The notes below the pieces were generated by a model. That model was not told where the DNA came from, ran no database searches, and was given only the letters and a program-made list of their open reading frames with translations. Shown in pieces: positions 661 to 58,248 of a stretch of 64,000 bases of DNA. Position 1 is the stretch's first letter. Each line of letters starts with the position of its first letter. Origin of the DNA: Candidatus Kerfeldbacteria bacterium (GTDB lineage Bacteria > Patescibacteriota > Patescibacteriia > SBBC01 > CAIJZX01); NCBI GenBank assembly GCA_963731735.1, contig CAVSWO010000002.1, positions 529-64,528 on the forward strand. Direction: 5' to 3'. The position numbers and the translations under genes were made by a program.

Positions 661-661
661 T

Positions 662-23100: not shown

Positions 23101-23119
23101 AATCCCTGTCCCGGAGCCA
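23101..23119 (+). repeat. 19-nt perfect direct repeat of the tRNA-Gln 3' end (AATCCCTGTCCCGGAGCCA), 165 nt downstream of the tRNA.
   Basis: Read directly. The intervening 22936-23100 is GC-rich with hairpins and an inverted GGATTCGAAC motif. Confidence 0.9.
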
Positions 23120-34695: not shown

Positions 34696-34874
34696 GTAAA
34701 GATTTTTGGAAAAAGTTACCAAAGCCAATACTAGCTTTAGCCCCGATGGAAGGGTCACGGCGGCCGATAGAGCGAGTGAACTGCTTCACTCGCGTGCCGC
34801 CGCGACGGGTGACGCTATGTTCCAAGGGAACGAGCGGCACCCGGGCCCCTGGAATTGGAGCGAGCATTTCATGA
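34692..34874 (+). CDS. 60-aa ORF with the Dus-like N-terminus (MSKDFWKKLPKPILALAPMEGS...), copy B.
   Basis: SD-like GGAAGGA upstream and an ATGA overlap with the dus start. Its N-terminal codons differ from copy A mostly at synonymous sites. Confidence 0.45.
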   Translation: MSKDFWKKLPKPILALAPMEGSRRPIERVNCFTRVPPRRVTLCSKGTSGTRAPGIGASIS

Positions 34875-35891
34875 ACAATTTTTGGAAATCACTCCCACGG
34901 CCAATCCTGGCGCTTGCTCCAATGGAAGGGGTCAACGACACCGCTTTCCGGCAACTGTGTAAACAGCACGGCGCGGATTTGGTGTATACCGAATTCGTCG
35001 CGGCCGACGCGATTGTGCACGAAGCCAAACGTACCATGGGTCGCTTGCGATATGACCCGGCAGAACAGCCGGTGATTGCGCAAATCTTTGGGCGTAATCC
35101 TGAATCGTTTCGGGCGGCCGCCAAAGCGATTGACCAGATGGGTTTTGCCGGCTTGGATATTAATTTCGGCTGCCCGGCTCGTAAGGTAGTGCATCGCGGA
35201 GAAGGCGTGGCCCTGCTGCGCGAACCGGCATACGCGCGCCAGCTGATCGAAATCGCGCTCGAGAGTGTGACGATTCCGGTTTCGATCAAAATCCGGACCA
35301 GTATTCGGGCCGAACGGAAAGAAGTTCAAGACGGCGCCGAAAACCACACCGCCCTGGATTTTATTGAGGCCGTCGGAGATTTACCGATCGCAGCAGTAAT
35401 GATTCACGGCCGCGCTTTCGAGCAAGGTCATCAAGGCGATGTCGACACCGCCATGATCAAAGCCGTCAAACAACACTTCAACGGTCTGGTCTTAGCCAAC
35501 GGCGGGATATTCACTCCGGAACGGGTGGTCAGTATGCTGCAGGAAACCGGTGCCGACGGCGTCGGCATCGCGCGCGGGACCTGGGGCAGTCCCTGGATTT
35601 TTTCCCAAGCCCGGCAGTTGCTTACGACCGCGCGATTATGATCCGGTTTCCTGGGAGACGATCAAGCAGACCATGCTTGAGCATGCCCGGCTGAATTTTG
35701 AACTCAAGGGCGAGCATGGACTGGTCGAATTACGGAAACATCTGGCCAAGTATATTACCGGCTGGCACGGCGCCCGCCATTTCCGAGCCCAGGCAGTTCA
35801 GGTCAAAACACTCAACGATGTCGACCAACTCGTACAAGACATTGAAGCGCGCCGTGAAGTAGCGGCAAAACAAAAAACGGATTACAGATGA
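34871..35891 (+). CDS. tRNA-dihydrouridine synthase (Dus family), with a 1-nt frameshift in a CGCGCG run near 35629-35634.
   Basis: MNNFWKSLPRPILALAPMEGVNDTAFRQLC... is a Dus TIM-barrel. The C-terminal helical domain (DYDPVSWETIKQTMLEHAR...) continues in the +1 frame as ORF 35550..35891. Confidence 0.75.
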
Positions 35892-36549: not shown

Positions 36550-36601
36550 GTGTGTGTTTCTTTACACACCTAGTATAGCACAAATTTCTTCGGTCGGCAA
36601 C

Positions 36602-37702: not shown

Positions 37703-37724
37703 ACTGCCGGCTACTCTACCATAA

Positions 37725-37751
37725 TTAGCACTCTCAATGCAAGAGTGCTAA
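37725..37751. promoter_or_regulatory. CIRCE operator (HrcA binding site) upstream of dnaJ.
   Basis: TTAGCACTC-tcaatgcaa-GAGTGCTAA, a perfect 9-N9-9 inverted repeat. Confidence 0.85.
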
Positions 37752-39376: not shown

Positions 39377-41500
39377 TTATGGAGCCAGCTCGCCAGCCGG
39401 TAATTTGCTTGGGCCTCCGCCGCCGCCAGATCCACTGGTGCAAAGGACTGGCTTAGTCAGCAGTAAATCTTCATAGGGCTGTCCTTTGGTATCATAGTAG
39501 AAGATCTTGTACCCATCACCGGTTGATGGCGTATAGCTGAAGGCCGGCAGGCACAGGGTAGTATTTATCGGAGTTGGCGCCACGTCACTCTCGGCCGTAT
39601 ATCCTCCCTGGAAATTCAGTTTGAGGTACGGCACATGGACGGGCGTGGTAATTGAACTGTCAACTACCGGCTGCACCATCAGCGGTTCAATTGTTCCGGA
39701 AGTGGTGGTCGAGGCGGAAACGGATTGGCTCGGGAAATGTATACTCCCTAACTGGTAGGTCCGCGCAAAGTTAAAGTTGAAGGTGCCTTCAAAAGATCCG
39801 GGATTGCCATCCGCGACGGTTGCGTTCGTAAAGTGAGTTACGTGGAGACCACGGTTGTAGCTCTGGGTGCAGCTGGTCTTAAGCGCGCGGTTGGTCAAGA
39901 ATATATCAGTGTACGGTTCGCCGTTTTGGTCGAAGTAGAAGGTGGTGTCACCTTCGCCCGTCGTGCCATTCAGGCTGTAGCTCGGGGTACAGGCCGTCAC
40001 ATTAAACGTCTGAGACGGTACGTTTGGATCAGCGCTGACCCAAAGATGCCCGGCTAAGTGCATGATCGTTTGAGGCACAATCACGGAACCCTCGATGTTT
40101 CCGGCTGTCGCATGAATGCCAAATGGTCCAATCGGGTTATAGGCACTGTTGTAATACGGTCCGGTTCCGTCAGCACTTAACCCGTACAGCAGGGTCTGAT
40201 CTTGGTACAGGTCGAAGTGACCCAGGCTGAAGTTTGATGGATCGGAGGCAATCACTTGTGACATGAGATGCAGGTCGGTAAAACTTGAAACCCGCAACAT
40301 GCGTTCACGTTTGGTCACGCAATCTTCGGTCACGACTGGCTGGGTTAAGAAGACATCGGAATAAGCGTTACCCCGGGTGTCAAAGAAGTAGCGGGCCGGT
40401 ACTTCGCTTTGGGTGACATCAACGGATGGCATACACAGCGTGGCTTGCTGTGATTCCCCCTGGTAGGGCGCGCCAGTGATTCGTATCAGCGCTTCGGGAG
40501 TCGTGTAATTGTCACCGAAGGTGAATTCCGGCATCAAGGTCAGCGGGGTGTCGCTTGGATAATCAACCACTTGGCTGCCATACGAAAAACCGTTGGCGAA
40601 GTTGTACAATCCAAGGTTAGCATTGCCGACTTGGAGGATATTCAGCGAGTGCGATAGTGTGCTCGGCAAAAACGAACCTTCCGTATTCGTGACGCTGGAA
40701 AATTTCAGTGACCGGTTTTTTATATCATCACAAGATTCGGACGTAGTTCGATTGGTTAGTTTACTGTCAGTGTAGGTTGAGCCATCGCTGCCAATATACA
40801 AACGAGATTCCGAGCTCTGGCCGATACACAGCGTCAAATAATCCGGACCCGAAGTTGCGTCCCGCATGTAACTAATAGTCACCATTTGGGCTGGAAATCC
40901 GAGCGGAGGATCTTCAATGGAAAATGGTGTAGCTTGTGCAGACGCCTCGGGTATTAAATATTTTTCAATCGGAGAACGATGACTGGGTGCCATGGCGGTG
41001 TTGCCCGGAGTCAACTCTATATAGACTGGGTAGGCACTGACCGGTACCTGTGCACTGGCTTCAGGTATCAACCATTGAGCGATTGTTGAACGACCGCTGG
41101 TCTCTTGATTGAGCGGGGGAAGCATGGAGACGGGTTGTGATTCAACATTTGGCGTAGCCTGAGACTCTCCCGCCGCCGAAGTTTGTGAATAAAACGTGTA
41201 CTGGCTATTGCCGACTTTGGCTTTGTAATACAGCGAAGCAAAAGCCTGATTTTGGTCCATCATCGAAACCGCATTAGAAATCACCGTGACTTTTAAGGGC
41301 TTATTTTTCGTTCCACCGCCTCCATTCCCGGAATCAAGCAATTTGGGAAAGGCCAACATCGCAAACCCCATAGCCAGCGCGCTCATGCCGATGGCCGTAC
41401 CTAAAAAAATACGGGTGGCGCTTAAGGCGATCCCCGTTGAGGTGGTTTGCTGGGTTGCTGACGAGACCTGATTCTTATCGGTATCGATGGTCAGTCGCAT
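39377..41500 (-). CDS. Large membrane-anchored or secreted surface protein with four Cys-bracketed internal repeats.
   Basis: N-terminal TM, duplicated YLIPEASAQ, and four modules of the form TLC...(Y/F)(Y/F)(F/Y)D..G.(A/P)Y.D.(F/L)LT......C. Gly-rich C-terminus. Confidence 0.6.
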   Translation of the reverse strand: MRLTIDTDKNQVSSATQQTTSTGIALSATRIFLGTAIGMSALAMGFAMLAFPKLLDSGNGGGGTKNKPLKVTVISNAVSMMDQNQAFASLYYKAKVGNSQYTFYSQTSAAGESQATPNVESQPVSMLPPLNQETSGRSTIAQWLIPEASAQVPVSAYPVYIELTPGNTAMAPSHRSPIEKYLIPEASAQATPFSIEDPPLGFPAQMVTISYMRDATSGPDYLTLCIGQSSESRLYIGSDGSTYTDSKLTNRTTSESCDDIKNRSLKFSSVTNTEGSFLPSTLSHSLNILQVGNANLGLYNFANGFSYGSQVVDYPSDTPLTLMPEFTFGDNYTTPEALIRITGAPYQGESQQATLCMPSVDVTQSEVPARYFFDTRGNAYSDVFLTQPVVTEDCVTKRERMLRVSSFTDLHLMSQVIASDPSNFSLGHFDLYQDQTLLYGLSADGTGPYYNSAYNPIGPFGIHATAGNIEGSVIVPQTIMHLAGHLWVSADPNVPSQTFNVTACTPSYSLNGTTGEGDTTFYFDQNGEPYTDIFLTNRALKTSCTQSYNRGLHVTHFTNATVADGNPGSFEGTFNFNFARTYQLGSIHFPSQSVSASTTTSGTIEPLMVQPVVDSSITTPVHVPYLKLNFQGGYTAESDVAPTPINTTLCLPAFSYTPSTGDGYKIFYYDTKGQPYEDLLLTKPVLCTSGSGGGGGPSKLPAGELAP

Positions 41501-41580
41501 AAATGTATTTTATTGATTATTTCTTCTCTTCGACATCTAGTATAGCAAAAAATACACCGTTTGTCAATTTGCTCCTCGCC

Positions 41581-41910
41581 CTACCGATTATCGCCTGAAC
41601 CGTGGATTTGATTCCGTTCCAACCGCGACAGCAGTTTGTCTAAATTGGTCTGGGCGACGGCGTCCAGTTCCAGTCCCAGCTCGGTGGCTAACTGCGCCAA
41701 GTACCACAGCACATCACCCATTTCTTTTTGAATCTCTTGGCGAGTAACTTCGTCGATCTGGCCGCCTTTGTCCCGTAGGATCTTTTTAATTTTTTCAGCC
41801 ACCTCGCCGGCTTCGCCGACCAGGCCTAAGGTCGGGTAGACAAAGTTTTGACCGGCGTCAGGATATTTGGCGGTGGTTCGACTTGATTGTTGATAGCTTG
41901 AAAATTCCAT
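41581..41910 (-). CDS. MazG-like nucleotide pyrophosphohydrolase (small all-alpha NTP-PPase).
   Basis: YPTLGLVGEAGEVAEKIKK...EMGDVLWYLAQLA. Confidence 0.75.
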   Translation of the reverse strand: MEFSSYQQSSRTTAKYPDAGQNFVYPTLGLVGEAGEVAEKIKKILRDKGGQIDEVTRQEIQKEMGDVLWYLAQLATELGLELDAVAQTNLDKLLSRLERNQIHGSGDNR

Positions 41911-41951
41911 GATTAAGAAATCAATGACAAGATTAGGTTGAGTATAGCATA

Positions 41952-42623
41952 TCAGGGTTCATAGTCTTTGGGCGCCGACGGCTGGTTACCCGGCATTCGT
42001 TCGATCGACAGCATCAGACCGTCCACTAGAATTTTTCCCAACACCACCGCCCACAGCGCGAACCAACCAAGGCTGACATGAACTACCAGCATCAGAAAAA
42101 CCGCCAATTCAACCACTGACGCGTGGATCAAGCTGGCCCGGAATATATCATGCGATACGATAAACCCACGACGTTGATTGAGCTCGCCCGCGACCCCGAT
42201 GATCAGGAGACTCACATTCATAAGGCCAAATGTCAGCAAGCCGGGGTCGGTGGAGGTTTCGGTAAACCATCGGACATGCCGAGCCCAGGTCGCGTCGGTC
42301 AAAAAGCTGAGCGCGACAGCTCCGCCGGTCCAGGCTAAGACCATTGAGCTGATCAGCCAGAGTGAGCCGAGGCTCAAAACCACCGCCCACAATACGTGGG
42401 CCGTGGCCGGGATATCCCAAGTAGCCAATTCAACTTCAACCGCCTGGTTTTCCCGGGCGTGAACTAAACCCCGTTTCAAAAGCGCCACACTTGTTATGAG
42501 GACGCCTTCCCACCAATATGCCAACCAGAGTGTTCCGACATCCCAATTTCCGGTCTGCACAAACACCAGTGGCAAGGCGTTGACGGCCAGCCAGAACCAC
42601 CGAGTTGGAGACTGCAGCGGCAT
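41952..42623 (-). CDS. Integral membrane protein, hypothetical.
   Basis: 223 aa with 5-6 TM segments. Confidence 0.5.
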   Translation of the reverse strand: MPLQSPTRWFWLAVNALPLVFVQTGNWDVGTLWLAYWWEGVLITSVALLKRGLVHARENQAVEVELATWDIPATAHVLWAVVLSLGSLWLISSMVLAWTGGAVALSFLTDATWARHVRWFTETSTDPGLLTFGLMNVSLLIIGVAGELNQRRGFIVSHDIFRASLIHASVVELAVFLMLVVHVSLGWFALWAVVLGKILVDGLMLSIERMPGNQPSAPKDYEP

Positions 42624-42718
42624 GATAGGTTCAGCCTAGCAGTCTGCCGCGCTTTTGCCTAGCCGATTATTTGCAGGCGCTTTTTGGGCGCATATATCCA
42701 AGTTTATCGCGGCTGGAC

Positions 42719-42746
42719 TTGACAATATTTCCTACCGGTGTATACT
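42719..42746 (+). promoter_or_regulatory. Strong promoter TTGACA-N16-TATACT with no protein gene downstream.
   Basis: cTTGACAatatttcctaccggtgTATACTgg. Confidence 0.6.
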
Positions 42747-42752
42747 GGCGGT

Positions 42753-43362
42753 TGTCTTTACAGGCCATCTTTGCGTCGCCCATGGGGTGCCGGGAGGGAT
42801 AGTCGCTCATCGAAGCGAGCAATTATCGAAGCGGTTGCGCTTCTCTCTCGGCCCCCGGGCGGCCGTCGAACGACATCCCCGCGGGGCGGGGCGCTGGGAC
42901 CTGCGCGGTCTCGACCTGAATTCCAACTTCGAGTTGGAATGAAGCCAGGGATCTGCGCGCCAGAGCCTGCCATCAGGTTCCAGCCCCCGCCGTGGTGGAT
43001 GCTTCCGTTCACGCACGCGAGCCGAACGCAGGACGACAAGAGTCCTGAAAACTGCTCGCGCGAACCGGCGAGGGTTCGGGGCTTCCGTGCGCCCCACCCT
43101 CGTCCGGTCTAAGACTTCTTCCTCGATCCTTCAGCTTTCAGCTTCGCCTTCCCGGTCTGCTTCCGGCAGACCACCGTGATTCACGGCGCAACCGAGACAG
43201 CGCCGCCACCATCAACGGAAGAAAGGAGGTGACCAATGAAAGGCCGCTCTCCGCTCTCGGGTAACCGGTAGCGCGCGGCGAATACGCTCTCACATTCGGG
43301 CCACCGCCCAATCACAATTTGACGAGCCTCCCCCGTTTCCTCGGAACCGGGGGAGTTTTTTC
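42753..43362 (+). ncRNA. Candidate structured non-coding RNA or long leader: ~610 nt, ~68% GC, no credible ORF, bounded by a promoter and a terminator.
   Basis: Many perfect hairpins (ccaac-ttcga-gttgg, ggtctgc-ttccg-gcagacc, cgaaccggcgagggttcg). Only Arg/Pro-rich overlapping ORFs. An 11-codon ORF with a perfect SD lies at 43236..43271. Confidence 0.4.
43328..43362 (+). terminator. Rho-independent terminator.
   Basis: ctcccccg-tttcctcggaac-cgggggag followed by ttttttc. Confidence 0.8.
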
Positions 43363-43365
43363 TAT

Positions 43366-43394
43366 TTGACGAATGGAGCGGCTTCCGTTAGAGT
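43366..43394 (+). promoter_or_regulatory. Promoter TTGACG-N17-TAGAGT.
   Basis: TTGACGaatggagcggcttccgtTAGAGT, then a GGAGG SD and the ATG at 43428. Confidence 0.6.
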
Positions 43395-43427
43395 GCCGTT
43401 GCTCTTTTCCTTCGACCCGGAGGTTGC

Positions 43428-43775
43428 ATGACCGTTATTCGGAAGTTCGGCCCAACCCGTTTTCGTGAGTACGAAGTCGTGGCGGGCGACGAAGTCATGA
43501 CCATCAGCCAGAGCGGCGTTTCATTCAAGCTGGCCTACTTGCCGGAACTGCCTTTCACACGGTATTACGTCTGGTTCAGCTACATCAAGAGTGCCAGGGA
43601 AAACGAGTATATGCTCTCGTGCCATTACCGGTTGCGGGATGGCAAGGATCGACCGAACATGATCCAAATCATCGGCTCGTTTGCAAGCCTGACCGATGCC
43701 CAGGATTTCCTGCGCGGCGTGGCCCCGCTGCTGCCCGAGCTGCCGGCCGACCAACTCCCGAACAACCAGTCCTAG
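43428..43775 (+). CDS. Hypothetical protein.
   Basis: 115 aa with its own promoter and SD. Confidence 0.55.
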   Translation: MTVIRKFGPTRFREYEVVAGDEVMTISQSGVSFKLAYLPELPFTRYYVWFSYIKSARENEYMLSCHYRLRDGKDRPNMIQIIGSFASLTDAQDFLRGVAPLLPELPADQLPNNQS

Positions 43776-43781
43776 CCCCGG

Positions 43782-44372
43782 CTAGGACTTTTTTTCTGCC
43801 GGCAGAACGGCTGCCAATTTTTCTACCGTCGTGAAGACGTGGGTTTGAAACCCGAGTGAGCCGGCGAACGAAGACACCTCTGCCGAATGATCAATCAGCA
43901 AACAATCCGACGGTTGGTAGGCGCCTTTCTGTAACAGCAACTTATAAAATTCCTGATCATGTTTGGTCAGACCGAGATCGCAGGAAAATAACAAGGTGTC
44001 AAAAAATTCCGGCAAATTATAGGCGGTCCGGATGGCATTTTTCTTATCCGGCGAACAATCGGTGGCCAAGCCCAAGGCGACTTGCCCGTGAAGCATGTTG
44101 ATCAACCCCCAGACTTCCCGATTCGGATCAACGTGGAGAAAATATTTTTTTCCCGCCACTACCGCCTGGTTTCCAAACAATCGTTCAACCATCGCCCAAA
44201 AATCTTCCGGCGGCAAACTCCCGGTCATGTAGGCGTAACTATGCTGCTCGAGTTCTGCGCTAATCGCTTGGTGATCTGTCTGTCCGGCGACTTGGCCGAT
44301 CGCCTGCATCAAACCGGTGAAGGTTCGCCGGTCGAGCACGCCGTGATAATCGAAATATATGATCTTGGCCAT
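43782..44372 (-). CDS. HAD-superfamily hydrolase.
   Basis: Motif I IIYFDYHGVLD, with downstream ATDCSP and D-rich motifs. Confidence 0.65.
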   Translation of the reverse strand: MAKIIYFDYHGVLDRRTFTGLMQAIGQVAGQTDHQAISAELEQHSYAYMTGSLPPEDFWAMVERLFGNQAVVAGKKYFLHVDPNREVWGLINMLHGQVALGLATDCSPDKKNAIRTAYNLPEFFDTLLFSCDLGLTKHDQEFYKLLLQKGAYQPSDCLLIDHSAEVSSFAGSLGFQTHVFTTVEKLAAVLPAEKKS

Positions 44373-44472
44373 GGCGATAGTTTAGCACCGCGTTGACATT
44401 TGGGCGAGGTATGCTAGCGTCAAGTCAAGCAGCTCATTCGCAGCCTATCTCTTGGCCAAAACACGAGGAGCC

Positions 44473-44793
44473 ATGATCGAGCACGTCAAGCTGTTTGACT
44501 ACGCGCACGACGGAGCCTGTTTCCTGCACACCCGTGAAGGTTCAACGCTCTGGATTGCGCATCGCAATTTCCAGTTCCGTTTATTCACGCGCTTGAACCT
44601 CCGGATCCGGCCCAACGACCGGGTCAGTCTGACCTATCACGCCGGCGCCATCCAGCTGATCGTCGGGCAGCAATCGGCCGACCAATGTCGGACCATCGCC
44701 CTGGCCGAAGCCGAACTGACGCCGCGTTTGGCGAGCTGGATCGACCGAGCCAATCTCTACCTGGGATCGTCCCAGCCCCCGGTGCTACCGTAA
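44473..44793 (+). CDS. Hypothetical protein.
   Basis: ORF 44452..44793; start taken at MIEHVKL. Confidence 0.4.
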   Translation: MIEHVKLFDYAHDGACFLHTREGSTLWIAHRNFQFRLFTRLNLRIRPNDRVSLTYHAGAIQLIVGQQSADQCRTIALAEAELTPRLASWIDRANLYLGSSQPPVLP

Positions 44794-44796
44794 GCA

Positions 44797-44830
44797 CCGG
44801 GGTATTTTTATAAAAAAACGGAGCTCATGA
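44797..44830 (-). terminator. Terminator hairpin (cggagctcgtcatgagctccg plus a T tract on the minus strand).
   Basis: Read directly. Confidence 0.6.
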
Positions 44831-45055
44831 CGAGCTCCGAGACTTCTGAAAGAACGGCCAGCCGGTCTGCGCGAGAATTTCCCCGTAGATGGCCAACCCG
44901 ATGACAATCGCCACTCCGTTCCAGGTCAGGACTTGGCCGAACATCAGCAGGAAGATGATGGCAACAACTTCGAGCGTGCCGCCGATGGCCAAGTACTGGT
45001 TGGGCGGAAAATTTCCCTGCGCCTCCAAATCACGATAGGTCCGCGATCCTAACAT
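44825..45055 (-). CDS. Small two-TM membrane protein.
   Basis: Strong SD AGGAGGAGATAATG; 76 aa. Confidence 0.5.
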   Translation of the reverse strand: MLGSRTYRDLEAQGNFPPNQYLAIGGTLEVVAIIFLLMFGQVLTWNGVAIVIGLAIYGEILAQTGWPFFQKSRSSS

Positions 45056-45084
45056 TATCTCCTCCTAGGTGTGTGGGTAGTGGG

Positions 45085-45122
45085 AGTATACCACAATCCC
45101 CCCCCCAACCTCCGCGCGGCCG
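45085..45122. repeat. Copy R1 of a 20-bp GC-rich motif family (...CCCAACCTCCGCGCGGCCGG), fused to an extended -10 element GTATACCACA on the opposite strand.
   Basis: Read directly; compare R2-R5. Confidence 0.8.
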
Positions 45123-45394
45123 GCGCGGTACATTAAATTTCGTGAGAGTCAAGAATTATTCGACGGAAATATTAGTTCAAGTCTACTATCACAAAAACAC
45201 TCGCAGAAGTAAGAAAACTCCCGAGACGGCAGAGCCAAGTAGGAGTACTGAAGGGACGCCGACCAGACGGCGCAGTTCCAATGAAATCGATTGTTTGGTT
45301 TTGAAGGCAAACCGGTATTGACAAAAAACGGTTTTTTTGCTAGCCTGCTTGGTCAGTTAAATGACGTCAAAATCTAAACAATCTGGAGGATACG

Positions 45395-45598
45395 ATGTTC
45401 ATTCCTGTGCTTCTCCTCGCCCTGGCTACCGGTAGTGGCATTGCGCTGGGATATGGAACGCATAGCGCCGCCATCGGCTGGGCCGCTTCTTTCGGCCTCC
45501 TGATGCTCGCCGTGAGCATTATTCAGATCATGCACTACTTGGATGCCATCCTGGATTCCCAGCAGGCCATCCGCGAACTCATCAGGAATCGGATGTAG
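45395..45598 (+). CDS. Small two-TM membrane protein.
   Basis: SD GGAGGATACGATG; 67 aa; terminator downstream. Confidence 0.5.
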   Translation: MFIPVLLLALATGSGIALGYGTHSAAIGWAASFGLLMLAVSIIQIMHYLDAILDSQQAIRELIRNRM

Positions 45599-45625
45599 AA
45601 CCTTCCGACCAGGCCAACAAACTTT

Positions 45626-45656
45626 GGGAGCCCCCTCGGGGACTCCCTCTTTTTTA
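45626..45656 (+). terminator. Rho-independent terminator.
   Basis: gggagccccctcggggactccc followed by tctttttt. Confidence 0.7.
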
Positions 45657-45704
45657 CAACCTTCTTAAAAACTTTGGTCGAGGCTCCACCTGCTTTGTCT
45701 AGGC

Positions 45705-45733
45705 TTGACTAGTCACAAATAAACCGCTATCCT
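45705..45733 (+). promoter_or_regulatory. Promoter TTGACT-N17-TATCCT.
   Basis: TTGACTagtcacaaataaaccgcTATCCT. Confidence 0.5.
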
Positions 45734-45821
45734 GTGCAAGCTCTCTTCCGACTGGATGGGAGTCTTGTTCATCACTTGTCTCGGAGATACTTGCCGGGAC
45801 GCTTCTCCAGGGGGCTTTACC

Positions 45822-46610
45822 ATGAAGCGTTGCAAACTGCTGGGGGCATTTTCCATCCTGCTGATGCTGACCCTGCCCCTCTCGGCCTTCGCGGCCACGC
45901 TGACCGTCACGCCGAGCGCACCGCTCGGCTGGGGTCCGCAGAACGTGACCGGTGGCGGCACCGTCGCCATCACCACCACCTACCCGCGGACGACCGACGG
46001 TTCGCTTCAGTTCACGGGTTCCAGCGGCAGCTCCAAGGCCGACTACGAGCTCGACAACCTCAATCCCGGCGGCTTCGGGCTAGTCAAGGACATCACGTCC
46101 GTCGGCTACGAATTCTACCGGAACAGCTCGAGCAGCAACCCGGCGGTTCAGGCTCCGGCCATGCGGCTCGGCGTCTACGATCCGGTTTCGGGTGCCGCTT
46201 CGCTGCTGATCTACGAACCGGTTTACAACGGCTACCCGTCGTCGGTTCCGACCGACAGCTGGGTGACGATCGACGGTCTCAATGGGAACTGGTGGATGCG
46301 TGCTTTCGGCTCGCCCTCCTGCTCGTACGAGATCTACGACATCACCCTGGCCGAGTGGGCGACCAATTCGAACAACGGCAATCCGTTGCAGCCGTACAAC
46401 GGTTGCACACCGAACCCGGTCGGTCCGAACGCCTGGGTCTACGCCATCAACGTGGGTATCGGTTCCGGCTGGAACGGCGCCTTCGACGGCGCGGTCGACA
46501 ACGTTACCCTCGGGTTCAATGGCCTGTCGGTGACCTACAACTTCGAACCGGATCTGCCGACCCCGGATTCCAAGACCTCTTGGGGTCGGCTCAAGACCAT
46601 CTACCGCTAA
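45822..46610 (+). CDS. Secreted Gly/Ser/Asn/Thr-rich protein, hypothetical.
   Basis: Signal peptide MKRCKLLGAFSILLMLTLPLSAFA; 262 aa. The alternate-frame ORF 45734..46615 is Arg-rich junk produced by high GC. Confidence 0.6.
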   Translation: MKRCKLLGAFSILLMLTLPLSAFAATLTVTPSAPLGWGPQNVTGGGTVAITTTYPRTTDGSLQFTGSSGSSKADYELDNLNPGGFGLVKDITSVGYEFYRNSSSSNPAVQAPAMRLGVYDPVSGAASLLIYEPVYNGYPSSVPTDSWVTIDGLNGNWWMRAFGSPSCSYEIYDITLAEWATNSNNGNPLQPYNGCTPNPVGPNAWVYAINVGIGSGWNGAFDGAVDNVTLGFNGLSVTYNFEPDLPTPDSKTSWGRLKTIYR

Positions 46611-46631
46611 CCTAGCTGCACCTTCAACACC

Positions 46632-46660
46632 CCGGCCGTTGCGCGAAGCGCAACGGCCGG
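46632..46660 (+). terminator. Long GC hairpin (ccggccgttgcgc-gaa-gcgcaacggccgg) with a weak U tract.
   Basis: Read directly. Confidence 0.5.
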
Positions 46661-46666
46661 TCTTCT

Positions 46667-46692
46667 AATCCCCCAACCTTCGCCCGGACTGG
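46667..46692. repeat. Copy R2 of the motif (AATCCCCCAACCTTCGCCCGGACTGG), between convergent gene ends.
   Basis: Read directly. Confidence 0.8.
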
Positions 46693-46716
46693 GTCAGACC
46701 GCAGGCTGGAGTTGGA

Positions 46717-47136
46717 CTAATTTCCTTGTATCGCCTTTACAATTTCGTCGATGACTCCCTCCGAAACTTTCCGCTCTGTCCCCCGTTCATAATGACTACC
46801 GAAAGCCTTGTCCTCAAACAGTTCACCGGCGAACGTAACCGGTTTGTTATATCTCGGCCGAACGTGCCAATGCACGTGCGGATTCGGAGGATCGTTCCGA
46901 TAGGCGTGATTCATTAAGCAGGTCCAGTTGAACATCGTTGCACCGAATGCTTTCTTGCATGCGGATTCGAGTTGTTTCACCACCTGCGAAAAATCATTCC
47001 ATTGATCCGCAGTCAGGTTGGACATGGATCCAACTGGCTCCTTGCATACCACGATGCAACGACCGAGATAGGTTTGGTCGTCATTTTTTAGTAAGACTTT
47101 CCAATGCGGAGTTTCGAAGATCAGGTACTGCTTCAT
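46717..47136 (-). CDS. HIT-family (histidine triad) hydrolase.
   Basis: HVHWHVRPRY histidine-triad motif; 139 aa. The -10 lies 7 nt from the ATG, so the mRNA is leaderless. Confidence 0.8.
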   Translation of the reverse strand: MKQYLIFETPHWKVLLKNDDQTYLGRCIVVCKEPVGSMSNLTADQWNDFSQVVKQLESACKKAFGATMFNWTCLMNHAYRNDPPNPHVHWHVRPRYNKPVTFAGELFEDKAFGSHYERGTERKVSEGVIDEIVKAIQGN

Positions 47137-47144
47137 GGTATTGA

Positions 47145-47178
47145 GTATACCACACCCCCAACCTTCGCCCGGCCGGGG
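47145..47178. repeat. Copy R3 (GTATACCACACCCCCAACCTTCGCCCGGCCGGGG).
   Basis: Read directly. Confidence 0.8.
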
Positions 47179-47201
47179 TCACTGTGAAGGCGCGGTTAGA
47201 A

Positions 47202-47969
47202 TCATCGAATACTACGAATCCACTTTTTCAATAGTTCTTTTATTTCAGCCAAATGTCGCGGATCGATAAATGTGTGGGGTGCGCCAGCGATTGTATGAAT
47301 TTCTTTTGAACCAGGGATGGCATCAAAAAACATTTTTTGGTGCTCAGGCGGCGTAGCGTCATCAAGTTCACCAGCCAAAAGAAACACGGGCATGGTCAAT
47401 TTCCCTGCCTCGGGGAGTAAATCATATTTTAGCCGATCGGCTAGGTGAGACCATTTCAGGCGTTTGATCACGCCCGGCATTGTTCTACTCGGCCTCACGC
47501 GCCAGCCAGTAGCTTCCCAATCGCGCAAATCCTCAGGTGTATGCGTGTCAAGAGAAAGCCTGCCTGAAACGACTGTCGAGATTGGCGCCAAAGCCATAAC
47601 TTCCCGTGGAAATTTTTCGGCATAGAGTGCCACGCAAATTCCTCCAAGGCTATGCCCAGCTAATGCGAATGGCTCACGATACCATTTCTGCGTTTTTGCC
47701 CACGCGATCACCGTTTCCAAGTCCTCATAGTAACTCGTAATCGTCGCGTCCTCATAGTTCCCCTCGCTCTCCCCGAACGTATCTCGCGCGTCAAAAAGCA
47801 CGACCGTATACCCTGACTCTTTCCAAGCGTCGGCCAGTGTTTTAATGTGCTGTTGTTCCTTATTGCCTCCTAACCCATGCATCACAAATGCCAGCCCTTT
47901 CTGATTCGGTACTTCCTCAACCAACACCGCAATTTTTTCGCCCTTACTATTTTGGATGAGGGTTTTCAT
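47202..47969 (-). CDS. Alpha/beta-fold hydrolase.
   Basis: GHSLGG nucleophile elbow; 255 aa; leaderless promoter context. Confidence 0.8.
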   Translation of the reverse strand: MKTLIQNSKGEKIAVLVEEVPNQKGLAFVMHGLGGNKEQQHIKTLADAWKESGYTVVLFDARDTFGESEGNYEDATITSYYEDLETVIAWAKTQKWYREPFALAGHSLGGICVALYAEKFPREVMALAPISTVVSGRLSLDTHTPEDLRDWEATGWRVRPSRTMPGVIKRLKWSHLADRLKYDLLPEAGKLTMPVFLLAGELDDATPPEHQKMFFDAIPGSKEIHTIAGAPHTFIDPRHLAEIKELLKKWIRSIR

Positions 47970-47976
47970 GACTCAA

Positions 47977-48014
47977 GTATACCACAATCCCACCCAACCT
48001 CCGCCCGGCCGGCG
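47977..48014. repeat. Copy R4 (GTATACCACAATCCCACCCAACCTCCGCCCGGCCGGCG).
   Basis: Read directly. Confidence 0.8.
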
Positions 48015-48089
48015 TTAACTTGCGGGTGGGGGCTGGGCTTGACGCTGCAATGCTCTGGGCGTACCCTAATCGCAGGTGGCACAGAATCT

Positions 48090-48497
48090 ATGCCGCCTGT
48101 TCGTACAAGCCATAAATTAGCCGCCAGACGAAAAGCACTCCGGCACTCAATGACCGAACCGGAGATATTTTTATGGTCTCATCTGAAGAATCGTAAATTG
48201 CTTGGTTATAAGTTCAGGCGTCAACACAGTATCGGTCAATATATTCTCGATTTTTATTGTCATGAATTGTATCTAGCGGTTGAAGTTGATGGTTCGCAAC
48301 ATTTTGAACCGGCGGCTCAACGATACGACCGTCTACGCACAGAATATCTCGAGTCATTGAAGGTACAAGTTGTTCGGTACACGAACAGTGATGTGCTGAA
48401 TAATCTCGATAGGGTCTTGGAAAATCTCATGCAGGTGATTCGGCGGCGGCGAGTTCGACCTCCCCGGCGCTCGACTTCTCGCGCCACCCCTCCCTAA
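48090..48497 (+). CDS. DUF559 endonuclease-domain protein (Vsr-like fold).
   Basis: TEPEIFLWSHLKNRKLLGYKFRRQHSIGQYILDFYCHELYLAVEVDGSQH is the DUF559 signature. Confidence 0.7.
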   Translation: MPPVRTSHKLAARRKALRHSMTEPEIFLWSHLKNRKLLGYKFRRQHSIGQYILDFYCHELYLAVEVDGSQHFEPAAQRYDRLRTEYLESLKVQVVRYTNSDVLNNLDRVLENLMQVIRRRRVRPPRRSTSRATPP

Positions 48498-48616
48498 TCG
48501 GGAGGGGAAATTGTGGTCGCCGCCTCAACCCGCTCCCCTCCTTCTGCTCCCCGGGATACGGGGAGCGTTCCGCGTTAGCGGAACAGAGGGGCCGAGGAGG
48601 GGCCACCGAACGTAAT

Positions 48617-48642
48617 GCCCCCCCAACCTTCGCCCGGCCAGC
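48617..48642. repeat. Copy R5 (ATGCCCCCCCAACCTTCGCCCGGCCAG).
   Basis: Read directly. Confidence 0.8.
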
Positions 48643-48694
48643 ATAGTTTGTGACATTACAAAACGGCCCGGCTTTCGCCGGGCCGCATGATTAC

Positions 48695-50665
48695 TTATTT
48701 ACTTTCCTCTTTTCCGGCGGAGCCGGATCCGGCTTCGCCGGGCTTTTCATCCACGACTTCCCCTTCAACGGGGCCTTGTCCTGAGGCCGAACCGGAGTCG
48801 GCCGAAGGACCTCCTTGTCCACCCTGCGCCTGTTGCATGGCTGGACCAATCTTCTGAATCGCTTCGGACAGCGCCTTGGTGGCGTTTTCGATCGCCAGTT
48901 TATCGGTACCGTCTTTGACCTTTTTGAGGTCATTCATCTTGCCTTCAATATCGGCGCGCATTTCGCCCGGGACTTTGTCGCCGGCGTCTTTGAGCGCTTT
49001 TTCGGCGGTGAAGACCAGCTGTTCAGCCGCGTTCTTGGTATCAATCAATTCCTTCTTCTTGGCGTCTTCGGCCGCATGAATTTCGGCGTCCTTACGGAGT
49101 TTCTCGACTTCCGCCTTATCGAGGCCGGTTGAACCTTGAATCGTGATTGACTGCTCCTTGCCGCTGGTTTTGTCCTTGGCTTTGACGTTCAGGATGCCGT
49201 TGGCGTCAATATCGAAGGTAACTTCGATCTGCGGCGTGCCGCGCGGCGCCGGCGGAATGCCGTCCAGGATGAAGCGGCCGAGGGTTTTGTTGTCCGGTGC
49301 CATCGGGCGCTCGCCTTGCAGGACGTGAATCTCGACTTGCGGCTGGTTGTCCGCGGCGGTCGAGAAGACCTGCGACTTCGAGGTTGGAATAGTCGTATTA
49401 CGCTCGATCAGCGGGGTCATGACTTGGCCGAGGGTTTCCAGGCCGAGGGTCAACGGGGTGACGTCGAGCAGTAAGACATCTTTGACTTCACCTTGGAGTA
49501 CGCCGGCTTGGACGGCCGCCCCGAGAGCCACCACTTCGTCCGGATTGACGCTGGCGTTCGGTTCCTTGCCGAAGAATTCCTTGACGGTTTTGATCACCAG
49601 CGGCATCCGGGTCATCCCGCCGACGAGAATCACTTCGTTAATGTCGGACGGTTGGAGCCCGGCGTCGCTTAAGGCTTTCTTGGTCGGTTCGAGGGTCTTT
49701 TGGACCAGGTCGCCAACCAGGTTTTCCAGCTGGGCTCGGCTGAAGGTTTTGACTAAGTGCAGCGGACCGGCATCACCTTGGGTAATAAACGGCAAGTTGA
49801 TTTCCGTTTCCTGCGAGCTCGAGAGTTCCTGCTTGGCTTTTTCCGCGGCTTCTTTCAGGCGCTGGAGCGCCAGGTGGTCTTTCGACAAATCAATCCCCTC
49901 CTGTTTGCGGAACTCTTCAATCAGCCAGTGAATGACTAACTGGTCGAAGTCGTCGCCGCCGAGGTGCGTATCGCCATTCGTCGATTTGACTTCAACCGTG
50001 TCGGCTGAAACTTCCAATATCGAGATGTCGAAGGTTCCGCCACCCAGGTCATAGACCGCGATTTTTTCATCTTTCTTTTTGTTGAAGCCGTAGGCCAAGG
50101 CCGCGGCAGTCGGTTCGTTGATGATGCGTTTGACGTCAAATCCGGCGATCCGGCCGGCATCCTTGGTGGCTTGGCGCTGGGCATCGTCAAAATAGGCCGG
50201 CACGGTAATCACCGCTTCGGTAATTTTTTCACCCAAGCGAGCTTCGGCGTCGGCTTTGAGTTTGCCGAGGACCATGGCCGAAATTTCCTGCGGCGTGTAG
50301 TCTTTATCGCCCATGGTGACTTTGACGCCTTCGCCGGCGTGCTTGATTTCGAACGGCATGATTTTCAGGTCGCGCTGGACTTCCTCGTCGTCCCAACGGC
50401 GGCCGATCAGGCGCTTGATTGAAAACAGCGTGTTCTTCGGGTTGACCACCGCTTGGCGCTTGGCCACCTGGCCGACCAACCGTTCGTTGGTTTTTGACAG
50501 GGCCACCATCGACGGCGTGGTCCGGCTGCCTTCGGCGTTTTCAATAATTTTTGGTTCGCCACCTTCGACGACCGCCATGGCCGAGTTGGTGGTTCCGAGA
50601 TCGATTCCGAGAATTTTTGGCATAATGATGAGAGAGTTATTTAGCGATGTTGATGAAGGAGCCAC
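48695..50665 (-). CDS. dnaK: Molecular chaperone DnaK (Hsp70).
   Basis: [22 protein letters not shown] and other Hsp70 signatures. 656 aa. Confidence 0.95.
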
Positions 50666-52759: not shown

Positions 52760-52786
52760 TTAGCAGTCTACCATAGAGAGTGCTAA
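52760..52786. promoter_or_regulatory. CIRCE operator upstream of hrcA, overlapping a TATACT -10 element.
   Basis: TTAGCAGTC-taccataga-GAGTGCTAA. Confidence 0.8.
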
Positions 52787-52872
52787 TTTGAGTATACCCC
52801 CGCTCTTTTTTCGCGTCAAATCCCCTAGCCTGCGCCGGCTGGGGAAAGAAAAACCCCACCAAGGGTGAGGTT

Positions 52873-57979: not shown

Positions 57980-57997
57980 TATGTGTAGGTATTGGTA

Positions 57998-58017
57998 CCG
58001 CCAAGGGGATTCCTTCT
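57998..58017 (-). repeat. 20-nt perfect direct repeat of the tRNA-Glu 3' end (GAATCCCCTTGGCGGTACCA in tRNA orientation), 153 nt downstream of the tRNA.
   Basis: Read directly: plus-strand TGGTACCGCCAAGGGGATTC occurs at 57998 and at 58171. Confidence 0.9.
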
Positions 58018-58170
58018 CCTCCACGACTCGCGACCCGACGGGTTCCCGCTCGTCGCTCCCCCGAAGCCGGGGTTCCTCTCCGAGTGCCACCGGCACTCGT
58101 TTCGGATACCCTTCGAATCCAGGTCTCAATCGCCAGGATGCCCGACCGCGAGGGTCGGCCACTCTGGCGA

Positions 58171-58248
58171 TGGTACCGCCAAGGGGATTCGAACCCCTGT
58201 TACCAGGATGAGAACCTGGCGTCCTAGACCGGACTAGACGATGGCGGC
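58171..58248 (-). tRNA. tRNA-Glu (anticodon CUC), with an encoded CCA.
   Basis: Minus strand GCCGCCATCGTCTAGTCCGGTCTAGGACGCCAGGTTCTCATCCTGGTAACAGGGGTTCGAATCCCCTTGGCGGTACCA; anticodon loop TTCTCAT. Confidence 0.85.

What the first reader, a model, noticed from the sequence alone, without database searches (positions are those of the whole stretch)
45085..48642. Five copies of a 20-bp GC-rich motif (CCCAACCTYCGCCCGGCCGG) punctuate a cassette-like run of single-gene units
The motif occurs at 45103, 46672, 47157, 47993 and 48622. Each copy lies in an intergenic gap that bounds one accessory-type gene: small membrane protein, secreted Gly/Asn-rich protein, HIT hydrolase, alpha/beta hydrolase, DUF559 endonuclease.

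In three copies it is fused at fixed distance to an extended -10 element (TGTGGTATACT on the coding strand). These give leaderless or short-leader promoters with no recognisable -35, so the motif occupies roughly -20 to -45.

In the other two copies it sits between convergent gene ends and has no promoter role.

This resembles cassette boundaries (attC-like or REP-like) or a shared operator for a dedicated regulator. An intact RAYT transposase is present at 11815-12363 in the same window, but the motif is not palindromic like classical REPs.
Basis: seen in the sequence. Interest (0 to 1): 0.75.

Follow-up and report, generated by a model that had tools for sequence, protein, structure and literature searches.

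The report
Private junction repeat between acquired genes
Five near-identical copies of a 20-28 bp GC-rich sequence sit at every boundary between small, compositionally foreign genes just downstream of dnaK in a Kerfeldbacteria-like (CPR) genome; three are joined to leaderless or short-leader promoters, the sequence was not found in any other searchable genome, and it is neither an integron attC site nor a REP element, so it is a real, modestly interesting, unresolved local repeat.

Summary
The five copies are real: 45104, 46672, 47157, 47993 and 48622, all on the + strand, against 0.05 expected by chance. A sequence profile scores them at 24-28 bits and nothing else above 5 bits in the window or in four relatives' loci.

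Scans of species-representative genomes, JGI metagenomes and IMG/VR gave only chance hits.

- TGTGGTATACT is this organism's general extended -10. It also occurs at 8819, 58692 and, with one mismatch, 36572, without the motif.
- The distance from the motif to it varies (2, 6 and 8 nt).
- One unit holds two genes.

No hairpin or covariation was found, so it is not attC or REP. The window holds no recombinase or regulator.

The repeats lie in the segment beside dnaK whose content differs in every relative. HIT, the hydrolase and DUF559 are codon-atypical, and the secreted protein is atypical in the opposite direction. HIT and the hydrolase share one layout: -10, 6-7 nt, ATG, ORF, stop, 25 nt, motif.

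Best reading (about 0.4): a junction module, made of a GC-rich core with or without a promoter, copied as units accumulated by recombination. Rivals are pure promoter duplication with two relics, or an operator.

It could not be resolved without the whole 823-kb genome or read-level data.

The parts
45104..45123 (+). Motif copy 1 (CCCAACCTCCGCGCGGCCGG). It is preceded by a C9 run and 'AAT'. On the - strand it lies directly upstream of the promoter of the 76-aa gene.
   Evidence: 24.4 bits. The Logan contig L131 spans it without change.
46672..46691 (+). Motif copy 2 (CCCAACCTTCGCCCGGACTG). It has no promoter and its distal end is degenerate. It lies between the terminator hairpin of the secreted-protein gene and the HIT stop codon. 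It is the left edge of the low-GC block.
   Evidence: (26.2 bits).
47157..47176 (+). Motif copy 3 (exact consensus). It lies between the hydrolase stop codon and the HIT promoter.
   Evidence: (28.2 bits). The Logan contig L124 ends at 47155, the left edge of this copy.
47993..48012 (+). Motif copy 4 (exact, C-type). It lies in the divergent intergenic region between the hydrolase (-) and DUF559 (+).
   Evidence: (26.0 bits).
48622..48641 (+). Motif copy 5 (CCCAACCTTCGCCCGGCCAG). It has no promoter. It lies between the DUF559 3' hairpin region and the dnaK terminator. It is the right edge of the low-GC block.
   Evidence: (27.9 bits).
45085..45095 (-). Extended -10 (TGTGGTATACT) of the 76-aa membrane-protein gene, with a 29-nt leader carrying GGAGGA.
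47144..47154 (-). Extended -10 of HIT, 7 nt from the ATG (leaderless).
47976..47986 (-). Extended -10 of the alpha/beta hydrolase, 6 nt from the ATG (leaderless).
44825..45055 (-). 76-aa small membrane protein. Its composition is native (GC3 0.74) and it ends in a canonical terminator with no motif.
45395..45598 (+). 67-aa small membrane protein, the first gene of the unit between copies 1 and 2.
45822..46610 (+). Secreted Gly/Asn/Ser-rich protein (262 aa) with a signal peptide. GC3 is 0.84 (z +3.0). It has its own TTGACT-17-TATCCT promoter.
46717..47136 (-). HIT-family hydrolase. GC is 0.48 and codon z is -2.0.
47202..47969 (-). Alpha/beta hydrolase. GC is 0.49 and codon z is -2.7. The family is common in CPR, and the best non-self homologue is 69% identical.
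48090..48497 (+). DUF559 (Vsr-like PD-(D/E)XK endonuclease). GC is 0.48, GC3 0.43 and codon z -2.4. It has its own TTGACG-17-TACCCT promoter at about 48038-48066. The gene and both flanks are homologous to the DUF559 unit beside dnaK in relative L126.
47177..47201 (-). 25-nt spacer between the hydrolase stop codon and copy 3.
   Evidence: the length equals that of the HIT spacer, and 14 of 25 positions are identical (P about 0.001).
46692..46716 (-). 25-nt spacer between the HIT stop codon and copy 2.
48663..48686 (-). dnaK intrinsic terminator. Copy 5 lies 21 nt beyond it.

Best explanation
The motif is the conserved GC-rich core of a short junction module. It has been copied to every boundary of a small pile-up of separately acquired gene units in the variable segment just 3' of dnaK.

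Read on the - strand, the module is CCGGCCGGGCGRAGGTTGGG, then a G-run, then optionally (ATT)GTGGTATACT.
- Where the next gene points away from the core (hydrolase, HIT, 76-aa gene), the module carries a native-type extended -10. This drives a leaderless or short-leader transcript.
- Where the next gene points towards the core (DUF559, and the secreted protein with the 67-aa gene), only the core and the G-run remain. Those genes use their own -35/-10 promoters.

I infer that units were added or exchanged by recombination in or next to the core. Each event left a copy of the core at the new junction, much as att-site duplication does in tandem island accretion or in cassette arrays. Whether a dedicated recombinase or short-homology recombination did this is unknown.

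Shown: the repeat family, its positions, the variable locus, the composition breaks and the shared unit layout.
Inferred: promoter activity, from the sequence consensus only, and the recombination step.
For: 1. The family is tight and discrete. Five copies score 24-28 bits and the next best hit scores 5 bits. All copies face the same way, and there is one at each of five consecutive unit boundaries.
2. Similarity runs beyond any plausible binding site, which indicates copying by descent.
   - Copies 1 and 4 share 8 of 8 nt to the left plus 16 of 17 in the core.
   - Copies 2 and 3 share the 25-nt flank at 14 of 25 (P about 0.001), with the stop codon exactly 25 nt away in both.
   - Flank relationships are mosaic: copy 3 has a left flank like copies 1 and 4 but a core and right flank like copy 2.
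3. Composition breaks at the copies.
   - GC3 along the units is 0.74 | 0.72-0.84 | 0.56 | 0.49 | 0.43 | 0.69 (dnaK).
   - HIT, the hydrolase and DUF559 are three of the six most codon-atypical genes out of 54.
   - Copies 2 and 5 bound the low-GC block.
4. The segment next to dnaK has different content in each of four relatives at 83-86% DnaK identity, while hrcA-grpE-hsp20-dnaK on one side is conserved in all four and DUF3467-371aa-dnaJ on the other side is conserved in the two relatives whose loci reach it, L126 and L130. L126 also carries local direct repeats there, the 27-nt end of dnaK three times.
5. The -10 element is the organism's general promoter, and 6-7 nt to the ATG is its normal leaderless geometry. 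The motif-less gene at 8819 has the same layout.
6. An independent Logan assembly reproduces the copies exactly, so this is not an assembly artefact.
Against: - No integrase, recombinase or transposase lies within the 64 kb, apart from a sub-threshold RAYT-like ORF 33 kb away.
- The motif is absent from 185,579 species-representative genomes, from JGI metagenomes and from IMG/VR beyond chance single hits. An active, shared cassette system would be expected to leave copies elsewhere.
- No presence/absence variant of any unit was seen. L131 runs through copy 1, and Logan contig ends also occur inside genes, so the L124 end at copy 3 may be coincidence.
- Only two units (HIT and the hydrolase) show the full shared layout.
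- Three 'cassettes' carrying the same promoter right at the junction is equally well explained by simple duplication of a promoter module.
- The other 760 kb of the genome could not be examined.
Confidence: 0.4

Rival explanations
1. Pure promoter-module duplication, a 'putative mobile promoter'. One about 35-45 bp promoter piece (GC-rich upstream half, G-run, extended -10) was copied in front of several newly acquired genes and activated them. Copies 2 and 5 are relics that lost the -10 half. The GC-rich core has no recombination role.
For: - Three of five copies carry an identical 11-nt -10 in front of non-homologous genes.
- Copies 1 and 4 are about 90% identical over about 44 nt.
- The two promoterless copies are the ones with a degenerate distal end (GGACTG, GGCCAG), as expected for decay.
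- Both keep 'ATT + G-run', which belongs to the promoter type (D4).
- The motif is private to this genome.
- The phenomenon is documented in PMC3488235.
Against: - Both relics would have to be truncated at exactly the same point, right after ATT.
- The model does not explain why relics sit at convergent gene ends, at the edges of the low-GC block.
- It does not explain why HIT and the hydrolase also share a 25-nt 3' spacer of equal length upstream of the core.
- The copies are shorter than the 50-nt criterion of that paper.
Confidence: 0.25
2. A shared operator. The 20-mer is the binding site of a dedicated transcription factor, encoded elsewhere, that co-regulates the three - strand promoters. 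Copies 2 and 5 act as roadblocks or auxiliary sites.
For: - Seventeen of 20 positions are invariant while the immediate flanks differ.
- The distal half contains the dyad CCGGCCGG, which is intact in exactly the three promoter-linked copies.
- All copies are intergenic.
Against: - The distance to the -10 varies by 6 bp, more than half a helical turn.
- Two sites have no promoter.
- Pfam, NCBIfam and PADLOC found no DNA-binding protein among the nine small proteins of the cluster, and none among the other window ORFs that were scanned, apart from the heat-shock repressor HrcA. About two dozen further window ORFs were not scanned, and HrcA has its own CIRCE operators (I4).
- Identity is higher than is usual among operators and runs into the flanks, which points to recent copying.
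- There is no comparable site in the relatives' loci.
Confidence: 0.15
3. An integron-type array lacking its integrase (CALIN). Each copy is the R' end of a miniature attC, and the units are integron cassettes.
For: - On the - strand every copy ends in GTTGGGG or GTTGGGT, which resembles GTTRRRY.
- Copies 2, 3 and 4 have an RYYYAAC-like heptamer (GTCCAAC, TTCTAAC, GCCCAGC) 46-47 nt upstream. The consensus is taken from PMC5027507.
- The units are single genes and the sites are co-oriented.
Against: - There is no significant hairpin. Fold z-scores are -1.9 to +1.4.
- Pairing of the motif with its own flank is no better than with random GC-matched segments, P = 0.035-0.69.
- RNAalifold finds no flank helix, and its covariation term is +0.36.
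- The element is at most 47 nt, against 57-141 bp for attC.
- Copies 1 and 5 lack the partner heptamer.
- There is no intI in the window.
- The cassettes carry their own promoters, and two are reversed.
Confidence: 0.03
4. A REP, REPIN or MITE-type repeat mobilised by the RAYT-like protein at 11815-12363.
For: A RAYT-like ORF is present (NCBIfam REP_Tyr_transpos, E = 4e-18). The repeats are short, GC-rich and intergenic.
Against: - The motif is not palindromic and forms no hairpin.
- All copies cluster within 3.6 kb, and none flanks the RAYT-like gene.
- The RAYT hit is below the cut-off and split into two stretches.
- There are no terminal inverted repeats or target duplications.
Confidence: 0.02

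Closest known systems
Tandem accretion of integrated islands / cis-mobilisable elements at an att site next to a conserved gene (from my own knowledge of the Streptococcus thermophilus ICESt1/CIME work; not checked in a paper here)
   Same: - Direct repeats of a short core, all in one orientation, separate successive blocks of foreign DNA at the 3' side of a housekeeping gene.
- The blocks themselves lack an integrase.
- Composition changes at the repeats.
   Different: - The units are only 0.5-1.5 kb, with one or two genes each.
- No integrase was seen anywhere in the 64 kb.
- The core is not part of dnaK or of a tRNA.
- Three cores are fused to a promoter.
Integron cassette arrays / CALINs (attC features from PMC5027507)
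   Same: - Single-gene units are separated by co-oriented sites.
- Sites within one chromosomal array can be near-identical.
- There is a GTTRRRY-like end.
- Distances from the ORF to the site are very short.
   Different: - There is no attC hairpin, no extrahelical-base architecture, and the element is under 57 bp.
- There is no IntI or attI.
- The units bring their own promoters.
- Gene orientation is mixed.
Putative mobile promoters (Matus-Garcia et al. 2012, PMC3488235)
   Same: Highly similar upstream sequence, including the -10, lies in front of non-homologous genes in one genome. The proposed role is activating newly acquired genes.
   Different: - The copies are shorter than the 50-100 nt at 80% or more identity that defines that class.
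- Two of the five copies are not in a promoter position.
- All copies are clustered in one 3.6-kb locus.
REP / REPIN elements with RAYT transposases
   Same: They are short, GC-rich, intergenic repeats, and a RAYT-like gene is present in the same window.
   Different: The motif has no dyad symmetry, is not dispersed in the 64 kb, does not flank the RAYT gene, and occurs as direct copies only.
pdif modules of Acinetobacter plasmids (from my own knowledge; not checked here)
   Same: Small gene modules are bounded by copies of a 28-bp recombination site and moved in trans by host recombinases.
   Different: - pdif sites are XerC/XerD sites with two 11-bp arms, and they alternate in orientation.
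- The motif here has no such arms.
- It has no resemblance to dif.
- It keeps a single orientation.

Membership tests
Integron attC site | An imperfect hairpin formed by R'/R'' and L'/L'' pairing, with extrahelical bases and an unpaired central spacer (PMC5027507) | tested here: not met
   - Single-strand folds have z-scores of -1.9 to +1.4, and each copy gives a different structure.
- The motif-flank duplex is no better than with random GC-matched segments.
- RNAalifold finds no flank helix, with a covariation term of +0.36.
Integron attC site | Length of 57-141 bp | tested here: not met
   The conserved part is 20-30 nt. Even with the putative partner heptamer the element spans only 46-47 nt.
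Integron attC site | RYYYAAC / GTTRRRY core pair | tested here: inconclusive
   GTTGGGG or GTTGGGT is present in all five copies. An RYYYAAC-like partner at 46-47 nt occurs in copies 2-4 only. This was noticed post hoc, and the G-rich arm pairs promiscuously.
Integron attC site | An integron integrase (IntI) and attI next to the array | tested here: not met
   Pfam and NCBIfam scans of 29 ORFs, which cover the whole variable cluster and its neighbours but not every ORF of the window, gave no tyrosine recombinase. dnaK sits where intI would be. The rest of the genome could not be examined.
REP / REPIN (RAYT-associated) | A palindromic unit able to form a hairpin | tested here: not met
REP / REPIN (RAYT-associated) | Many dispersed copies, including copies flanking the RAYT gene | tested here: not met
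   All five copies lie in 45.1-48.6 kb, with none near 11815-12363. Only 64 kb of about 823 kb could be checked.
Putative mobile promoter (PMC3488235) | Homologous sequence upstream of non-homologous CDSs | tested here: met
   Copies 1, 3 and 4 lie upstream of the 76-aa gene, HIT and the hydrolase.
Putative mobile promoter (PMC3488235) | An alignment of at least 50 nt at 80% identity or more | tested here: not met
   The longest shared stretch is about 44 nt, between copies 1 and 4. Copy 3 shares about 33 nt.
Transcription-factor operator | A constant position relative to the promoter elements | tested here: not met
   The spacer to the -10 block is 8, 2 and 6 nt, and two copies have no promoter.
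Transcription-factor operator | A cognate DNA-binding protein that binds the site | not testable with these tools
   No HTH or other regulator was found among the cluster proteins. Binding needs DAP-seq or EMSA.
att-site direct repeats of an integrated island or accretion | Direct repeats that bound compositionally atypical DNA beside a conserved gene | tested here: met
   Copies 2 and 5 bound the low-GC block 46692-48621, where the three genes have codon z of -2.0 to -2.7. dnaK lies immediately beyond copy 5.
att-site direct repeats of an integrated island or accretion | A recombinase, and presence/absence of the unit between strains with an empty site | tested here: inconclusive
   No recombinase is in the window. 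The relatives differ in content at this locus but are too distant (DnaK 83-86%) and lack the motif. The same-strain Logan contigs show no variant.
MITE | Terminal inverted repeats and a target-site duplication | tested here: not met
   Only a weak inverted partner occurs next to copy 4 (I2: 71% over 28 nt). No such partner was found for the other copies.

The most novel reading that the evidence does not exclude
A hairpin-less gene-capture system in CPR bacteria. A junction element of about 45-65 bp combines a recombination core with a ready-made extended -10. Its layout is stop, 25 nt, CCGGCCGGGCGRAGGTTGGG, G-run, TGTGGTATACT, 6-7 nt, ATG. Single foreign genes would be inserted at the dnaK 3' hot spot and expressed at once as leaderless mRNAs, mobilised in trans by a recombinase encoded elsewhere in the 823-kb genome.
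Probability: 0.12. Interest if true: 0.8.

Novelty: new variant of a known kind. Interest (0 to 1): 0.42.

Why it matters
CPR/Patescibacteria have tiny genomes, and little is known about how they gain accessory genes and switch them on. This locus has foreign-looking single genes beside dnaK. Each gene is separated from the next by the same private sequence, and two are wired directly to a native leaderless promoter.

If the repeat marks the recombination junction, it would point to a compact capture-and-express mechanism unlike integrons. If it is only a duplicated promoter piece, it is still a clean small-scale example of promoter reuse activating acquired genes.

In either case the locus is a concrete target for read-level population analysis.

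Tried and rejected
- **Public collection scans for the motif.** The 18-mer against genome contigs gave 88 single hits in unrelated GC-rich taxa, including one inside an FtsK-like CDS of a Saccharibacteria MAG. A degenerate 20-mer against metagenome contigs gave 35 single hits. The viral-contig scan gave 6 hits. All are chance matches with no shared flanks.
- **Rfam on the whole window.** It found only two tRNAs.
- **Exact-protein look-ups.** They did not recover the source record. HIT (139 aa), DnaK (642 and 656 aa) and the secreted protein gave no place. One earlier look-up used a start that was wrong by one codon.
- **A motif-like site in relative L126** (CCCAACGACCCGGCCGG upstream of DUF559). 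A relaxed regex hit it, with 0 background hits in 1.7 Mb. The profile does not score it and it is inverted relative to copy 4, so I treat it as weak evidence.
- **The end of Logan contig L124 at the left edge of copy 3.** I considered it a sign of a structural variant. I downgraded it because L131 runs through copy 1 and ends inside a gene.
- **The 88-nt duplication after dnaK in L130.** It flanks a run of N and may be an artefact.
- **DUF559 as the agent.** The literature describes DUF559 proteins as Vsr-like mismatch endonucleases, not recombinases. YGCCGGCR-type sites do not fit all copies.
- **tRNA-derived att core, dif/Xer site, parS, iterons, and a replication origin suggested by the weak GC-skew minimum near 47 kb.** None has sequence or gene-context support.
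- **PADLOC.** No defence system was found.
- **An error of my own.** The DUF559 codon statistics were computed out of frame. They are corrected.

Full report
**Observation**

The pattern CCCAACCTYCGCCCGGCCGG, at up to 3 mismatches, matches five times: 45104, 46672, 47157, 47993 and 48622. All matches are on the + strand, against 0.05 expected from shuffles. A 13-mer core at 2 mismatches adds nothing credible elsewhere in the 64 kb.

An alignment shows 17 invariant positions, a C-run of 5-9 nt on the left, and no similarity common to all copies on the right. A sequence-only profile built from the five copies scores them at 24-28 bits. The next best hit scores 5 bits. This holds in the window, in the four relatives' loci, and with all filters off over the variable region. 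The family is therefore real, tight and local, with no decayed members nearby.

- TGTGGTATACT is not part of the motif. Exact copies at 8819 and 58692, and a one-mismatch copy at 36572, sit in front of other genes without the motif. The one at 8819 gives a leaderless start 6 nt downstream. It also shares the 'ATT + G-run' stretch seen in copies 1 and 4 (D4). Relatives use TGTG(G/C)TATACT as well. It is this lineage's general extended -10.
- The spacer between that block and the core is 8, 2 and 6 nt, not fixed.
- The -10 to ATG distances are 6 nt (hydrolase), 7 nt (HIT) and 29 nt with GGAGGA (76-aa gene), so the leaderless and short-leader inference stands.
- The unit between copies 1 and 2 holds two genes.

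**Source and context**

DnaK (48695-50623, - strand) is identical to a protein on an 822,872-bp NCBI/ENA contig. The next relatives, at 81-86% identity, are named Candidatus Kerfeldbacteria or Patescibacteria.

Two Logan contigs from run ERR11594398 reproduce the window. One covers 47155-49210 at 100% identity. The other covers 41463-46369 at 99.96%, and its two differences lie outside the motif. The repeats are therefore not an assembly artefact.

In four relatives, hrcA-grpE-hsp20-dnaK is conserved. On the other side, DUF3467-371aa-dnaJ is conserved in the two relatives whose loci reach it, L126 and L130, with MazG called only in L130. The segment immediately 3' of dnaK is different in each:
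- small membrane ORFs, DUF559, DJ-1 and SelR in L126;
- pilus genes in L127;
- an IS1595 transposase in L128 and L129;
- small ORFs in L130.

The five copies occupy the dnaK-proximal 3.6 kb of this variable segment.

**What it is not**

*Hairpin elements.* Single-strand folds of each copy with its flanks give z-scores of -1.9 to +1.4, and the structures differ. The motif pairs with its own flank no better than with random GC-matched 60-mers from the window (P = 0.035-0.69). RNAalifold finds only a 7-pair helix inside the motif, with a covariation penalty.

On the - strand the motif ends in GTTGGGG or GTTGGGT, and copies 2-4 have an RYYYAAC-like heptamer 46-47 nt upstream. That echoes the attC R boxes (PMC5027507). 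However, two copies lack the partner, the element is shorter than the 57-141 bp of attC sites, and the structure tests fail. I do not file it as attC.

*REP.* The motif is not palindromic, is not dispersed in the window, and does not flank the RAYT-like ORF. That ORF is itself below NCBIfam's cut-off.

*Other.* Rfam finds nothing. No recombinase, integrase or regulator appears among 29 scanned ORFs, apart from HrcA, and the PADLOC scan of the nine cluster proteins found no defence system.

**Distribution elsewhere**

Exact-pattern scans of 185,579 species-representative genomes, the JGI metagenome contigs and IMG/VR gave 88, 35 and 6 single hits. They lie in unrelated, mostly high-GC DNA with no shared flanks, which is the chance level. 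The source genome itself is evidently not in those collections, so its other 760 kb remain unexamined.

In L126, a relaxed pattern finds CCCAACGACCCGGCCGG in the DUF559/DJ-1 divergent promoter region, with no background hit in 1.7 Mb. The profile does not score it, and it is inverted relative to copy 4. I count it as weak.

**Internal structure of the family**

- Copies 1 and 4 form one subtype. They have CCTCCGC, an identical 8-nt left flank ACCACAAT, and 'CG' on the right.
- Copies 2 and 3 form another. They have CCTTCGC and a right flank starting GGTCA.
- Copy 5 is T-type with unique flanks.
- Copy 3 combines the promoter-type left flank with a core and right flank like copy 2, so the flanks are mosaic.
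- The stop codons of the hydrolase and of HIT both lie exactly 25 nt from the next copy. The two spacers are 14 of 25 identical (P about 0.001).

HIT and the hydrolase therefore share one layout on the - strand: core, G-run, extended -10, 6-7 nt, ATG, ORF, stop, 25 nt, core.

The two promoterless copies (2 and 5) are the ones with a degenerate distal end. Both keep TAAT plus the C-run and then diverge at the same point.

**Composition**

Against 48 reference genes in the window (GC3 0.62 +/- 0.07), the units read as follows (which corrects a frame error of mine):

| Unit | GC3 | Codon z |
|---|---|---|
| 76-aa gene | 0.74 | |
| 67-aa gene | 0.72 | |
| secreted protein | 0.84 (GC3 z +3.0) | |
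| HIT | 0.56 | -2.0 |
| hydrolase | 0.49 | -2.7 |
| DUF559 | 0.43 | -2.4 |
| dnaK | 0.69 | |

The three low-GC genes are three of the six most atypical genes out of 54. Copies 2 and 5 bound that block.

The hydrolase belongs to a family common across CPR, with a best non-self identity of 69%.

The DUF559 unit, including its promoter and a CCCCTCCCTAAnCGGGAGGGG hairpin, is homologous to the one beside dnaK in L126. Protein identity is only 58%, against 84% for DnaK, and the L126 gene has normal GC for its genome. DUF559 proteins are Vsr-like mismatch endonucleases that are often solitary and transferable (PMC12907096). I treat DUF559 as cargo, not as the agent.

**Interpretation**

Similarity that extends into the flanks, the mosaic subtypes and the near-identity of the cores all indicate that the copies arose from each other recently. 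Five independently maintained binding sites would not look like this.

Their placement is what recombination-generated junction repeats look like. There is one copy at each boundary, all in a single orientation, with composition breaks at the copies, inside a lineage-wide variable spot next to a conserved gene.

My best explanation, at about 0.4, is a junction module whose GC-rich core is duplicated when units are added or exchanged. Its promoter half serves the units that read away from it.

The main rival, at about 0.25, is plain duplication of a promoter module (the 'putative mobile promoter' idea, PMC3488235), with two relics. It needs no unknown recombinase and fits the private distribution. 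It does not explain the identical truncation point, the relics' positions at the edges of the low-GC block, or the shared 25-nt 3' spacer.

An operator (about 0.15) is disfavoured by the variable spacing, the promoterless sites and the lack of a regulator. Integron and REP readings are essentially excluded by the tests above.

**Limits**

- Only 64 of about 823 kb could be read.
- No same-species genomes were available.
- Promoter activity is inferred from consensus only.
- The recombination step is an inference.
- L124 ends exactly at the left edge of copy 3, where the homology between copies 2, 3 and 5 begins. That is suggestive of a graph fork, but it is not evidence by itself, because another contig ends inside a gene.

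**Verdict**

This is a genuine, private, clustered direct-repeat family at the junctions of a small accessory-gene pile-up beside dnaK in a CPR bacterium. It is partly fused to leaderless promoters. It is a new variant of known kinds (junction or att-type repeats and reused promoters), not a member of the attC or REP families. Interest is moderate at 0.42. It would rise sharply if read-level or strain data showed unit gain or loss at the core.

Noticed in passing
window 22862-23119 and 57993-58248: Both tRNA genes are followed by a GC-rich insert of about 165 nt and then an exact copy of the tRNA 3' end. For tRNA-Gln the 19-nt AATCCCTGTCCCGGAGCCA recurs at 22917 and 23101. For tRNA-Glu the 20-nt TGGTACCGCCAAGGGGATTC recurs at 58171 and 57993. 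tRNA-Gln also has an inverted partial copy at 22958-22998. These look like att-type footprints of small integrated or excised elements (D12, D14, I2).
   Followed up: partly
window 11815-12363, palindrome at 12079-12104: The RAYT-like ORF matches NCBIfam REP_Tyr_transpos below the cut-off (65.7 against 80 bits) and in two stretches. It contains a perfect palindrome, CAGGTGGGGGTTTAAACCCCCACCTG, which is single-copy in the window. Its codon usage is atypical (z -2.6). It may be a decaying or interrupted gene.
   Followed up: partly
L126 11869-12751: In the relative with 84% DnaK identity, the last 27 nt of dnaK (...EVVDEKK stop) recur twice downstream at 81-85% identity. In each case they form the C-terminus of a small membrane-protein ORF. 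This is either repeated insertion at the dnaK 3' end or small proteins that mimic the DnaK tail.
   Followed up: partly
window 37723-37751 and 52760-52788: CIRCE-type inverted repeats (TTAGCACTC-N9-GAGTGCTAA) lie upstream of dnaJ and of hrcA. The heat-shock genes flanking the variable segment therefore keep their classical HrcA operator (I4).
   Followed up: no
window 34528-34930: A 54-nt sequence occurs three times at a spacing of about 175 nt (70-85% identity), just upstream of and inside the 5' end of the Dus (dihydrouridine synthase) ORF. It may be a triplicated 5' segment (D2).
   Followed up: no
window 45095-45103 (C9) and 48615-48621 (C7): Homopolymeric C/G runs of 9 and 7 nt lie between the motif core and the -10 position. 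A run of 9 is long enough for slipped-strand length variation. The Logan contig shows the same length.
   Followed up: partly
window 48487-48600; L126 12840-12960: Short GC-rich hairpins lie downstream of DUF559 (CCCTCCCTAATCGGGAGGG, CTCCCCGGGATACGGGGAG, GTTCCGCGTTAGCGGAAC). The first is conserved in L126 but is unique within the window.
   Followed up: partly
window 1-2250: The first 2 kb are markedly AT-richer (GC 0.42). The two genes there have the most atypical codon usage in the window (z -3.8 and -2.2), so this is probably another acquired segment.
   Followed up: no
L130 11906-12193: An 88-nt stretch containing the dnaK terminator is repeated 200 nt downstream at 78% identity. The repeat flanks a run of N, so it may be a scaffolding artefact.
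   Followed up: partly
L128 12559-13356 and L129 2821-3618: In another relative an IS1595-family transposase sits about 0.7 kb downstream of dnaK. This is further evidence that the site accumulates insertions in this lineage.
   Followed up: no
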